Positions 12,001 through 15,000 of a DNA stretch of 63,271 bases are shown piece after piece. A program made the position numbers. This DNA comes from a virus (taxonomy: Duplodnaviria; Heunggongvirae; Uroviricota; Caudoviricetes): IMG/VR virus record IMGVR_UViG_2939521961_000016; one strand, 5' to 3'. How positions within the stretch are numbered: position 1 is the stretch's first letter; each line of letters begins with the position of its first letter.

Positions 12001-15000
12001 CAAGCTCCTTCCGTGCTTCGCCAAACTGTTTCTGATACCCCAGATTTGTGGTGCCAGCAATATTGTCGTACTGCTGCTCACTGTTCAGGTCATCGACCTT
12101 TTCCATGAAGTTATCTTCAGCCGGGCGGAGGATATTTTTGTAATCCTGCCACCCTTTCCAGGCCACTTCTTCCTGTGCTATTTGCGCTGCTGTTGGTTTT
12201 ACTTTGGTATCACCACCGCCTTTACTTCCACCCATAATGGCCCCCTGGATAACAAAAAACCCTGCCGGAGCAGGGTCAGAATGTGAATTACAATGTTGGT
12301 TTAAACACAATGATGAAAACTGTAGCAGTCAGACCGCTATCCTGAACACCATGAAGCCATCCTCATCATCCGGCATTCGCTCAAAGCCCAGTCGTTTTCC
12401 CAGCCGGATAAATCCCCGCCTTGCCGTATGGAACTCAGCCCAGCGTCCGCCAGCCAGATGGGTTAATGTCTTCACCTCCGGCAGGTAACGCTCAACGCTG
12501 TTACTCCCCGTACACACGCCCAGCAACACCAGAACATAAGGGATACCATCAGCACTGAGCACAGAACGCAGCACCAAAAAGCCATCAGGTGCCTCAAAAC
12601 AAAACGCCTGCTTTTTAAGGCAGGCGTCTTTAACTTCATTCATAAATTCAGGGTTGCGGGAATTTCTCACAACACGCTGCATATACCAGAGAATTTTATC
12701 GTTCATTCTCTCACCTGAAACGGGTGCCATATCGGCTGAACCTCAGCAACCAGTTGACGGGGACTCTCGTCCCCGTCGCGGTTTTCCTACTGCTTACACT
12801 GTAAGAACGCCGCAAACTCCGCTCCCCACAAATTCAGCCGGAACTCACACAGTGAACCGTGCAACATCCAGATGGTGAAGATAACCGTCATGCAAATTGT
12901 GACGGTGATAAGCGATTTTTGCGACATAGCGCTTGACTCCTTTTACAGAGAGGCGCTAACCTTCTACTTGCTTAAGGTACGAAGTGTTAGGGCCTCGGGT
13001 TAACGTTAAGTTGACTCGGGGCCTTTCCACATCAGGCCTTCAGGTTCACCCTCCAGCCATCAGCCGAAAGGCACCCACGCATAATTTACGGTTTTTGCCC
13101 TGTACGGGCAATAAAAAACCCGCCATCACAGCGGGTAGTAAACGGTTACCGGATACAGGTCAGAATTTCAGGCCAATGCCAGCAGTAACGCCACTCGTGC
13201 GCCAGTCGCCAGAGCCGGAACCTTCGTAAGCCACATCCAGTGTAACACTCTCATTCAGGTTAAACTGTGCACCTGCAGCCCACGCAAGGGAGGTTTTTTT
13301 CGTGCTGTTGCTTTCAGAAAATCCGCCACTACTGTTAATATTGTCCTTAATTTTCAGGTCAGCGCTAACTTTAGCAACGCCCATCCCTGCCATCGCATAT
13401 AAACTCATGTACTGATTAACCCGCCATGAAGGCCCCGCTAACAGACTCCAGTAATTCGCCCTGATATCCGTTCTGGCAGAAGCTGCCGGATTCTTAATCT
13501 TCCTGGTATGATCGGCTGACTGCACATCAATAAATGTCTGTGAGTTAGTGAGAGAACGCGTCCATGTAAAAGAGGTGATAACGCCAAAATCATCCGTTAT
13601 CTCGTAGCGATACCTGATATTAATGCCCTGTGGATTTTTATCCTTGCCTTCATATCCACTGACCCGACCATCTGTATATTCGCCCAATGAAGAAAAGTAG
13701 TTTCTGTTGACGAAATGACTGAAAGTCTCCCTGTTATGAGCAGTCGCATCCTTTACAAAATCCTTCAGTCCCGGAAACTGAAAGTGCGCATACCCCAGAG
13801 AAATTGTATGCTCTCCTTCTGCTGCATGTGCAGATAAATTTACACAGGCAATCCCGGAGATTGCACACACAACCAGTGTTGCTATACTCTTCATTTAAGA
13901 TATCCTGTATTCAGATAACACGCTAAACTTTTTAATAATACATCTTTTTAGACATTTTAAATGAATATTAAAGACTCGCTTCAACTAATCATATACTGAT
14001 GTATTAATAACCAGTACCTTATCTATATACGGCTTTCGAATATCCCATGTTGCACCACCGGAATAATGCTCACAGGAATATATTTTATTTCCTGTAGCAC
14101 CAGTGGATGTGGTATAAATCGGTCGATCATAAGGAGTTCTTTTCCAGTTATAATACCCGACCAGTGCAGGCATAATTGCGCATGGATATCCAAGGTCCTT
14201 CTCAAACTTGATATCAACAGGTATTAACTTCGCGTCAAGCAGCATCATTTCGCCATGATAAATCATCTCACCGTCCGGGTTATACATGGCGATACCATAC
14301 TCAGAAGGTGGAGTAACCATATTCGCGAAAGCATAAACCGTCGTAACACCAGGGTTCGTTCCCCTGACAATTACATGAAGCCTTAGTGCATGATATCCAT
14401 CAATCTGTTCATGCGTGTACATGACATCGGCCTTCTTCTCTGTTCTGATAAAGAAAAAACAACTTTTGCCTGACGGGATTGATGTTTTAAAAAAAGACTT
14501 TTCAGTCGCCGGTATGGTGCCTTTGTTGATCAGACACTGCGGCGTAAAACCTGGACTTATCCATACGCTGCCATCCGGCTTCATAATGCTCAAACCGTAC
14601 ATAACACTTATCCCCAGAATGTATAAATATAAGATCCCATACCCTGCTCAAGATTCGACCACGTCACCGTATTGTCATTAATGGTTATCTTCGGTACTTT
14701 CCGATCCGCAAATACATTATTCCAGGGAAATAAACAACATACAGCCTGCAATGATTTCCCGTCGGGTTTATTAGTGTACGTCTTTGAGCCAGACTCCGCT
14801 GTAAATCTGTCCAGGAAAAATACTGGAGTCAGCACGCCCGTAACATTAACGTTATTTCTGTTATAAATGGCAAAACCGTATTCCAATACTCACCTCCTGA
14901 TCAGCGTAATCTGCCTATGCGAACAGCCAGTCGTCCATTCTGGTCATAAACCTCAATTTTATCATTGCGGATCACCAGTCCTACATTCTGATTAGAGTAA

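What the first reader, a model, noticed from the sequence alone, without database searches (positions are those of the whole stretch)
12775..12915. Unannotated Hok/Gef-like type I toxin ORF beside lom
A 46-codon ORF below the ORF-track cutoff encodes an N-terminal TM helix followed by SLCEFRLNLWGAEFAAFLQCKQ, which resembles the conserved C-terminal region of Hok-family toxins as I remember them. It has a GGAG ribosome-binding site, lies between the lom terminator and a strong hairpin (12744-12765), and sits in a low-GC moron block. A hok-type locus would need an antisense RNA and a regulated leader, which I could not delineate by eye.
Basis: partly seen in the sequence, partly recalled or inferred. 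Interest (0 to 1): 0.7.

Follow-up and report, generated by a model that had tools for sequence, protein, structure and literature searches.

The report
Second Hok toxin cassette beside lom
The small ORF next to lom in this Shiga-toxin phage is a genuine Hok-family membrane toxin gene with its antisense-RNA antidote, but it is already annotated in RefSeq and its peptide has already been reported toxic, so the finding is correct but not new.

Summary
The ORF is real. It encodes a 46-aa peptide that passes Pfam's curated Hok/Gef threshold and matches PHROG 251. The window is a 933W-like Stx prophage, and the locus is 100% identical in 933W and VT2-Sakai. RefSeq already calls this ORF "Hok/Gef family protein" (WP_000078907.1). 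A 2025-26 preprint lists the identical peptide (72_1589) among cloned homologs reported toxic. The ORF sits in a ~375-bp mobile cassette (13096-12722) present in about a third of complete E. coli genomes. The cassette has the hok/sok RNA architecture: a conserved promoter, a 5'-3' closing helix, a Sok-target hairpin predicted to open only after 3' trimming, and an antisense promoter plus hairpin homologous to sokW. Covariation across 14 variants supports the fold. It is not the published hokW-sokW, which is a separate locus absent from this window. The one unusual point is that no conserved mok reading frame exists. This cluster also falls below Rfam's sok threshold, so its antisense RNA is unannotated. 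Verdict: interpretation supported, already known, low interest.

The parts
13160..13894 (-). lom (Ail/Lom outer-membrane beta-barrel protein); upstream neighbour, same orientation
   Evidence: Pfam Ail_Lom 113 bits; PHROG 108; annotated as lom in 933W
13112..13136 (-). Intrinsic terminator of lom: stem 13118-13136 followed by a T run that ends beside the hok -35 box
   Evidence: Terminator scan; coordinates
13083..13111 (-). Predicted hok promoter: -35 TTGCCC (13106-13111), 17-nt spacer, -10 TAAATT (13083-13088). Homology with other cassette copies begins at the -35 box.
   Evidence: Boxes and spacing kept in 14 variants from different genomic contexts. Homology block is query positions 5-379, i.e. 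13096-12722. Not reported by the strict consensus scan.
12722..13076 (-). Predicted full-length hok mRNA core (355 nt) from +1 GGGUGCC to the end of the fold-back element. In this phage context the transcript probably continues further 3'.
   Evidence: Rfam sok model position 1 aligns at 13076 here and at the equivalent base in hokW and three other copies. MFE -153.7 kcal/mol, z -6.3 against shuffles. Covariation.
13060..13076 (-). tac-like 5' element (GGGUGCCUUUCGGCUGA). It pairs with the 3' fbi in the full-length RNA and with GAAAGGCCCC (about 13018-13028) in the truncated RNA.
   Evidence: MFE pairs 13076-13070 with 12722-12728 and 13067-13060 with 12732-12739. Alignment helices 1-2 are 93-100% paired with only compatible one-sided changes.
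12722..12739 (-). fbi-like 3' element (UCAGCCGAUAUGGCACCC); end of the conserved cassette
12950..12996 (-). Sok-target (sokT) stem-loop of the processed mRNA. The loop CUUAAGCAA (12968-12976) carries a YUNR motif. In the full-length RNA, 12964-12976 instead pairs with 12742-12753.
   Evidence: Truncated-RNA folds. Loop opening cost is 8.2 kcal/mol in the full-length form against 0.5 in the truncated form. Helix 7 has 5 pairs with compensatory changes.
12787..12927 (-). hok-family toxin CDS, 46 codons. SD GGAG at 12937-12940. AUG plus the first codons (12919-12927) pair with 12807-12815.
   Evidence: RefSeq WP_000078907.1 'Hok/Gef family protein'. Helix 11. dN/dS median 0.25, with all sampled copies 46 codons.
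12756..12777 (-). G+C-rich hairpin just after the stop codon; predicted protective 3' end of the processed (active) mRNA
   Evidence: Nine pairs, 4 with compensatory changes, 99% paired. The equivalent stem in R1 is required for stability of the truncated hok mRNA (PMC9841398).
12740..12753 (-). Downstream box (CUGGUUGCUGAGGU) that sequesters the sokT loop region in the full-length RNA
12933..12962 (+). Predicted Sok promoter: -35 TTGACT (12933-12938), 18-nt spacer, -10 TAACCT (12957-12962). The -35 box overlaps the hok SD-AUG spacer.
   Evidence: The -10 box is invariant in all 14 variants and identical to that upstream of the annotated sokW RNA of 933W. Not reported by the strict consensus scan.
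12969..13027 (+). Predicted Sok-like antisense RNA (~59 nt): a 22-nt single-stranded 5' tail, a 14-bp hairpin (12991-13023) and a UUU tail. The ends are inferred by homology to sokW.
   Evidence: The hairpin is -23.8 kcal/mol on this strand against -10.9 on the sense strand, and is more stable on the antisense strand in all 14 variants because of G-U pairs.
12956..13030 (-). 24-codon leader ORF (GUG start, UAG stop 29 nt before the hok AUG). A possible but unconserved substitute for mok.
   Evidence: The frame is not kept in other variants.
12595..12628 (-). First terminator-like hairpin plus U run downstream of the cassette. It lies inside the next ORF and is a candidate 3' end of the primary hok transcript in this phage.
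   Evidence: Copies in other contexts carry a canonical terminator about 25 nt after fbi that is missing here.

Best explanation
This is a hok/sok-type type I toxin-antitoxin cassette carried as a moron between lom and the next late-region gene of a 933W-like Stx prophage.

Proposed mechanism:
1. A constitutive promoter (13111-13083) makes a stable hok mRNA starting at about 13076.
2. In the primary transcript the 5' end pairs with a 3' element (12722-12739). A downstream box (12740-12753) also pairs with the Sok-target region. The RNA is therefore neither translated nor bound by antitoxin.
3. Slow 3' trimming back to the hairpin at 12756-12777 lets the 5' end refold. This exposes the Sok-target loop (12968-12976) and loosens the hok ribosome-binding site.
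4. A short, unstable antisense RNA (about 12969-13027, plus strand) then pairs with the leader and silences the message, probably with RNase III cleavage.
5. If Sok supply stops, the 46-aa Hok peptide is made, inserts in the inner membrane and kills or lyses the cell.

What is shown here: family membership of the peptide, the cassette boundaries, and the conserved, covarying RNA fold. What comes from the literature: toxicity of the identical peptide. What is inferred: the transcript ends, Sok expression, 3' processing, and the biological role. The role could be prophage retention, exclusion of other phages, or help with lysis as reported for hokW-sokW.
For: Peptide:
- Pfam HOK_GEF 33.2 bits against a cut-off of 22.
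- PHROG 251 E 2.8e-24.
- All seven conserved Hok residues are present.
- RefSeq annotates the ORF as a Hok/Gef family protein.
- The identical peptide, 72_1589, was cloned as LRP157. Only three other homologs were reported non-toxic.
- dN/dS has a median of 0.25, and 14 of 14 sampled copies keep a 46-codon ORF.

RNA:
- Rfam sok model hit at 12914-13076 over the full model, E 8e-6.
- The homologous block 13096-12722 recurs in 1750 of 5426 complete E. coli genomes and in several prophage contexts.
- The full-length fold has z -6.3.
- 96.9% of pair cells are paired, against 37-45% for slid controls. Sixteen pairs carry compensatory changes, against 0-2.
- The sokT loop costs 8.2 kcal/mol to open in the full-length form and 0.5 in the truncated form. 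The ribosome-binding region costs 11.9 and 6.9 respectively. The same direction is seen in 13 of 14 variants.
- The antisense hairpin is favoured on the Sok strand in 14 of 14 variants.
- The Sok -10 box is identical to that of the annotated sokW.
- The mechanistic frame comes from R1 hok/sok (PMC9841398) and hokW-sokW (PMC8621323).
Against: - The Rfam score (35.6 bits) is below the curated 59.
- The NCBIfam HokA and Hok models are below their cut-offs.
- Neither promoter passes the strict sigma-70 consensus scan.
- No mok frame is present in this copy or conserved in the cluster. [quoted passage not shown]
- No terminator follows the fold-back element in this phage context.
- There are no transcript data for this locus.
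- The toxicity test used a heterologous promoter and Shine-Dalgarno, comes from a preprint, and its result figure could not be viewed.
- The predicted effect of Sok binding on ribosome-site opening depends on the assumed Sok 3' end: 8.9 against 12.9 kcal/mol.
Confidence: 0.85

Rival explanations
1. A translationally silent relic. The cassette keeps its RNA shape and an intact ORF, but without a mok frame Hok is never made from the native transcript. The locus would then be inert baggage that spreads with prophages.
For: - No ORF initiating at ATG, GTG or TTG runs from the leader into hok in this copy.
- The mokW start codon aligns to ACC here.
- In R1, mok translation up to the hok SD is mandatory.
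- From my own knowledge of Pedersen and Gerdes 1999, several K-12 chromosomal hok loci are inactive. The K-12 hokA locus is split by IS150.
Against: - dN/dS is about 0.25, and identical peptides are kept across copies with dS of 0.2-0.3.
- A strong invariant SD (AAGGAG) and AUG are kept in all variants.
- Both promoters are kept.
- Predicted opening of the hok ribosome site after 3' trimming is seen in 13 of 14 variants.
- The cassette is widespread and multicopy.
Confidence: 0.08
2. Canonical leader-ORF coupling is retained in a shifted form. The 24-codon ORF (GUG 13030 to UAG 12956), or its AUG 13032 neighbour in other variants, would play the mok role. It would bring ribosomes to within reach of the hok SD, and Sok would block it.
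For: - A conserved AAGG-N4-AUGUG motif sits at 13030-13040 in all 14 variants.
- The ORF ends 16 nt before the hok SD in this copy.
- In 17 of 42 unique IMG/VR leaders, some upstream ORF runs into hok.
Against: - Where such an ORF exists, its start positions are heterogeneous (at least six) and its end points vary widely. 25 of 42 unique leaders have no ORF that runs into hok, even among copies encoding the identical peptide.
- Indels in the hairpin loop shift the frame freely.
- The predicted Sok 3' end (about 13027) does not cover the GUG or AUG.
Confidence: 0.15
3. A chance small ORF that merely resembles Hok.
For: ORFs of 46 codons are common in a 63-kb window.
Against: Profile matches above curated thresholds, conservation as an intact ORF under purifying selection, and the whole hok-type RNA architecture around it.
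Confidence: 0.01

Closest known systems
Hok 'cluster 72' (peptide 72_1589) in Escalera-Maurer et al., bioRxiv 10.1101/2025.08.07.668861
   Same: The 46-aa peptide is identical. It is listed as a high-abundance cluster, was cloned (LRP157), and is among the homologs reported toxic on arabinose induction. [quoted passage not shown]
   Different: That study analysed coding sequences only. It explicitly left Mok, Sok and the mRNA structure aside and does not mention the lom-adjacent site in Stx phages. The tested DNA differs from the window by synonymous changes.
hokW-sokW of Sakai prophage 5 / phage 933W (Takada et al. 2021, PMC8621323)
   Same: It is a type I hok/sok locus in the same phage lineage. 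It shares the leader architecture, an identical Sok -10 box (TAACCT), and a mRNA 5' end with the same first six bases, GGGUGC. Its experimentally shown behaviour is the best guide to the role here: Sok is lost and Hok is made after prophage induction, and phage release is doubled.
   Different: It is a different gene at a different place. HokW is 51 aa (MKQQKAM...) and shares 33% identity with this peptide. It lies about 13 kb away in 933W and is absent from this window. It has an annotated mokW frame, whose AUG aligns to ACC here. Its leader scores 113.5 bits on Rfam sok, against 35.6 here.
hok/sok/mok (parB) of plasmid R1
   Same: It shares the tac/fbi 5'-3' closure, the upstream/downstream box logic, a protective hairpin at the 3' end of the processed mRNA, and a roughly 60-nt antisense RNA with a single-stranded 5' tail plus one hairpin. 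The Sok -35 box also overlaps the hok ribosome-binding region.
   Different: Peptide identity is 28%. There is no mok. The element is prophage-borne rather than plasmid-borne. In this phage the terminator after fbi is missing.
hokA/sokA of the E. coli chromosome
   Same: It is the closest experimentally studied peptide, at 46% identity, and the top NCBIfam model. The mRNA 5' end shares its first six bases (GGGUGC) and the 3' element ends in GCACCC.
   Different: The score is below the HokA equivalog cut-off (38.4 against 89 bits), so this is not an orthologue. The K-12 copy is interrupted by IS150.

Membership tests
Hok/Gef toxin family (Pfam PF01848) | Profile match at or above the curated gathering score | tested here: met
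   33.2 bits against 22, E 4e-8, residues 8-44 on profile positions 6-42 of 42. PHROG 251 E 2.8e-24.
Hok/Gef toxin family (Pfam PF01848) | Peptide of about 50 aa with an N-terminal hydrophobic helix and the conserved residues C16, T18, L30-C31-E32 and E41 (R1 numbering) | tested here: met
   46 aa. Residues 6-22 (LITVTICMTVIFTIWML) are hydrophobic. C12, T14, L26-C27-E28 and E37 align to the conserved positions (conserved set).
Hok/Gef toxin family (Pfam PF01848) | Toxic when expressed | not testable with these tools
   From the literature only. The identical peptide 72_1589 (plasmid LRP157) is in the tested set, and only 19_179, 60_1482 and 69_1540 were reported non-toxic.
[quoted passage not shown] | Long-range 5'-3' pairing (tac/fbi) that closes the full-length mRNA | tested here: met
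   A 15-bp closing helix in the MFE. It is kept in 14 variants with only compatible changes. The cassette homology ends exactly at fbi.
[quoted passage not shown] | Antitoxin target sequestered in the full-length RNA and exposed after 3' truncation | tested here: met
   In silico only. The loop opening cost is 8.2 kcal/mol in the full-length form and 0.5 in the truncated form. The sequestering helix has 5 compensatory pairs.
[quoted passage not shown] | cis-encoded antisense RNA with its own promoter opposite the leader | tested here: inconclusive
   The promoter boxes are conserved and homologous to the annotated sokW. The hairpin is stable only on the antisense strand in 14 of 14 variants. 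The Sok candidate has z -5.3. However, the promoter fails the strict consensus scan and no expression data are available.
[quoted passage not shown] | Overlapping mok reading frame whose translation is coupled to hok | tested here: not met
   No such ORF exists in this copy. The mokW AUG aligns to ACC. 25 of 42 unique leaders in IMG/VR have none, and the rest use at least six different starts.
Rfam RF01794 (sok / hok leader) | Score at or above the gathering threshold (59 bits) | tested here: not met
   35.6 bits here and 42.8-51 bits in three other copies of the cluster, against 113.5 bits for hokW.
HokA equivalog (NCBIfam NF007290) | Score at or above the cut-off (89 bits) | tested here: not met
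   38.4 bits and 46% identity to K-12 HokA.
hokW-sokW of Sp5/933W | Same gene: the 51-aa HokW with its mokW/sokW leader | tested here: not met
   The hokW start sequence is absent from the window. The window holds only one hok-like ORF. Identity is 33%. In 933W the two loci are separate.

The most novel reading that the evidence does not exclude
This very common 46-aa Hok cluster may work without mok. Hok's own ribosome-binding site would be opened directly by 3' processing of the mRNA, and Sok would act by refolding and/or RNase III cleavage rather than by blocking a leader ORF. In Stx phages the cassette also sits co-oriented inside the late region. Antiterminated late transcription could therefore read through it, interfere with the convergent Sok promoter, and time Hok production with lysis.
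Probability: 0.25. Interest if true: 0.45.

Novelty: already known. Interest (0 to 1): 0.2.

Why it matters
The practical value is mainly for annotation.
- The reference 933W record lacks this gene.
- Rfam-based pipelines miss the antisense RNA of this whole cluster, because every copy tested scores below the curated threshold.
- The first eight annotated codons of the next gene probably belong to the hok mRNA 3' element instead.

Biologically, 933W and Sp5 carry two unrelated hok loci. Published ΔhokW-sokW phenotypes were therefore measured with a second Hok system still present, which could mask stronger effects on lysis timing or prophage stability. The absence of a conserved mok frame in such an abundant cluster offers a natural test of whether leader-ORF coupling is really obligatory in the hok family.

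Tried and rejected
- I first assumed this was the published hokW-sokW. It is not: the peptide, primers and location differ, and hokW is absent from the window.
- Weak tblastn hits to Hok queries near 61.8 kb are noise inside unrelated ORFs.
- The sigma-70 consensus scan found no promoter in 12300-13300. The promoter calls therefore rest on conservation and homology only.
- The NCBIfam models are sub-threshold.
- Literature searches for the RefSeq accession and for hok + lom + Stx found nothing specific to this locus. Two papers that mention both hok and 933W were irrelevant, as was a paper on Pas sRNAs.
- The preprint's Table S1 is truncated in the held copy. I could not tell whether cluster 72 is in T1TAdb.
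- The 'allosteric Sok' calculation is not robust to the assumed Sok 3' end.
- I did not run the large protein-database searches, structure prediction or fold search. The profile matches and E. coli/IMG-VR DNA searches already settled identity and distribution.
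Full report
**What is there**

The ORF list shows a 46-codon ORF on the minus strand at 12787-12927. A GGAG Shine-Dalgarno lies at 12937-12940. The cassette is 49-51% GC. The low-GC block is lom and the two genes beyond it.

**Family**

The peptide passes Pfam's curated threshold for HOK_GEF: 33.2 bits against 22, E 4e-8. It also matches PHROG 251, 'MokW-like host killing', over its full length with E 2.8e-24. The NCBIfam HokA and Hok models match but fall below their cut-offs. The seven residues reported as conserved in more than 80% of 1264 Hok peptides are all present when the peptide is aligned to Hok R1. 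Identity is 46% to HokA, 33% to HokW, HokD and PndA, and 28% to Hok R1.

**What is already known**

The window is a short-tailed, 933W-like Stx-converting prophage. The 461-bp locus is 100% identical in 933W, VT2-Sakai (Sp5) and many O157:H7 genomes.
- RefSeq annotates exactly this ORF as 'Hok/Gef family protein' WP_000078907.1.
- A 2025 phage record calls it 'MokW-like host killing'.
- The original 933W record has no feature here, although it does annotate sokW, mokW and hokW about 13 kb away.
- The published hokW-sokW system (PMC8621323) is that other locus. HokW is 51 aa, and its sequence is not in this window.
- A preprint cataloguing Hok diversity lists the identical peptide as 72_1589, in a high-abundance cluster, cloned as LRP157. 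It states that only three other homologs of the 45 tested were non-toxic.
- That study did not analyse Mok, Sok or the mRNA.

**The cassette and its distribution**

A sensitive DNA search shows that the conserved unit is window 13096-12722. It is present in 1750 of 5426 complete E. coli genomes, with up to nine places per genome. Besides the lom site, copies lie in three other contexts:
- at the end of P2-like prophages, after ogr and next to serS, once as a tandem pair;
- between gpJ and a tail-fibre gene;
- near ykgM.

IMG/VR holds 293 relatives. Of the 80 fetched, 41 have lom immediately upstream. All 14 sampled variants keep a 46-codon ORF, with a median dN/dS of 0.25. Copies with identical peptides differ by dS of 0.2-0.3. 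The peptide is therefore under purifying selection.

**RNA architecture**

Rfam's sok model, which covers the hok leader, matches 12914-13076 on the hok strand over the whole model. The score is 35.6 bits, E 8e-6, below the gathering score of 59. Three other copies score 42.8-51 bits, while hokW scores 113.5. All of these matches start at the base equivalent to 13076.

Alignment of 14 variants shows the following conserved elements:
- a -35/-10 pair (TTGCCC-17-TAAATT at 13111-13083);
- an invariant 5' end, GGGUGCCUUUCGGCUG;
- an invariant AAGGAG Shine-Dalgarno and AUG;
- an invariant AGGUUAGCGCC, which is the reverse complement of a TAACCT -10 box.

The 355-nt RNA folds to -153.7 kcal/mol, z -6.3. 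In this fold the 5' end (13076-13060) pairs with 12722-12739. The RNAalifold consensus is 96.9% paired, against 37-45% for slid controls. It has 16 pairs with compensatory changes, against 0-2 in the controls, and no shuffle out of 500 reaches the observed values. One caveat applies: the structure was derived from this same alignment.

Four helices are informative:
- the 5'-3' closure;
- 12964-12976 pairing with 12742-12753, with five compensatory pairs;
- AUGUCGCAA (12927-12919) pairing with 12815-12807;
- the post-stop hairpin, with four compensatory pairs.

**The switch**

I removed the 3' end back to the post-stop hairpin. This is the stem that stabilises truncated hok mRNA in R1. The 5' end then refolds onto GAAAGGCCCC, and a long hairpin forms at 12950-12996 with the loop CUUAAGCAA. 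The loop opening cost falls from 8.2 to 0.5 kcal/mol. The cost of opening the hok ribosome-binding region falls from 11.9 to 6.9 kcal/mol. The direction full-length > truncated < truncated-plus-Sok holds in 13 of 14 variants. The size of the Sok effect depends on where Sok ends: 8.9 against 12.9 kcal/mol.

**Sok**

By homology with the annotated sokW RNA of 933W, I place the elements as follows:
- -35 box TTGACT at 12933-12938;
- -10 box TAACCT at 12957-12962;
- RNA from about 12969 to about 13027.

The RNA would have a 22-nt free 5' tail and a 14-bp hairpin. The hairpin is -23.8 kcal/mol on the antisense strand and -10.9 on the sense strand. The same asymmetry, caused by G-U pairs, is seen in all 14 variants. 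This argues for selection on the antisense transcript. The candidate folds with z -5.3. No public record fetched annotates an RNA here.

**mok**

This copy has no ATG-, GTG- or TTG-initiated ORF running from the leader into hok. The mokW start codon aligns to ACC. A 24-codon ORF (GUG 13030 to UAG 12956) ends 29 nt before the hok AUG. Neither it nor any other leader frame is conserved. Of 42 unique leader-plus-CDS sequences from IMG/VR, 25 have no ORF entering hok. The other 17 use at least six different start positions, even among copies encoding the identical peptide. [quoted passage not shown] I therefore file the peptide as a Hok/Gef family member, and the locus as a hok/sok-type cassette without a conserved mok.

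**Context peculiarity**

Copies in other contexts have a canonical terminator about 25 nt after the fold-back element. In the Stx-phage context that sequence is replaced by the start of the next gene. The first terminator-like hairpin is at 12595-12628, inside that gene.

**Verdict**

The gene is, however, already annotated and catalogued, and its peptide has already been reported toxic. Novelty: already known. The remaining open point is the mok-less arrangement and the role of a second Hok system in 933W and Sp5.

Noticed in passing
window 12706-12730 (minus strand), ORF 12329-12730: The annotated start (ATG 12730) of the gene downstream of hok lies inside the hok fold-back element. PHROG 610 matches only residues 9-133. 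ATG 12706, preceded by GGTGAGAG, is the more likely start.
   Followed up: partly
window 12595-12628 (minus strand): A strong terminator-like hairpin plus U run (GACGCCUGCCUUAAAAAGCAGGCGUUUUGUUUUG) lies about 100 nt inside the ORF 12329-12730. It may end the hok transcript or attenuate expression of that gene.
   Followed up: partly
whole window; 933W AF125520 58.4-58.7 kb (L017): 933W and VT2-Sakai carry two different hok loci: this one and hokW-sokW. This window carries only the lom-adjacent one.
   Followed up: yes
L007 1672-1812 and 2144-2284 (E. coli SCU-106): Two tandem copies of the cassette, with different alleles, sit between ogr of a P2-like prophage and serS.
   Followed up: no
L011 (E. 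coli SJ3), lom-adjacent site: The flanks are the same as in the window (lom upstream, the same gene downstream), but the Hok allele is different (MPQKTIIVSILC...). This suggests allele exchange of the cassette by recombination.
   Followed up: no
window 13030-13040 (minus strand): An AAGG-N4-AUGUG motif in the hok leader is kept in all 14 variants, although the ORFs it starts are not conserved in frame or length.
   Followed up: partly
L022, L027, L035, L039 (IMG/VR): Some copies have GGAUGCC instead of GGGUGCC at the mRNA 5' end. That would put a mismatch in the 5'-3' closing helix.
   Followed up: no
window 35874-36075, 37484-37732, 46863-47050, 48430-48515, 58613-58795: Rfam hits above the gathering score: STnc100, three tRNAs, two isrK + C4 antisense RNA pairs, and sRNA-Xcc1.
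   Followed up: no
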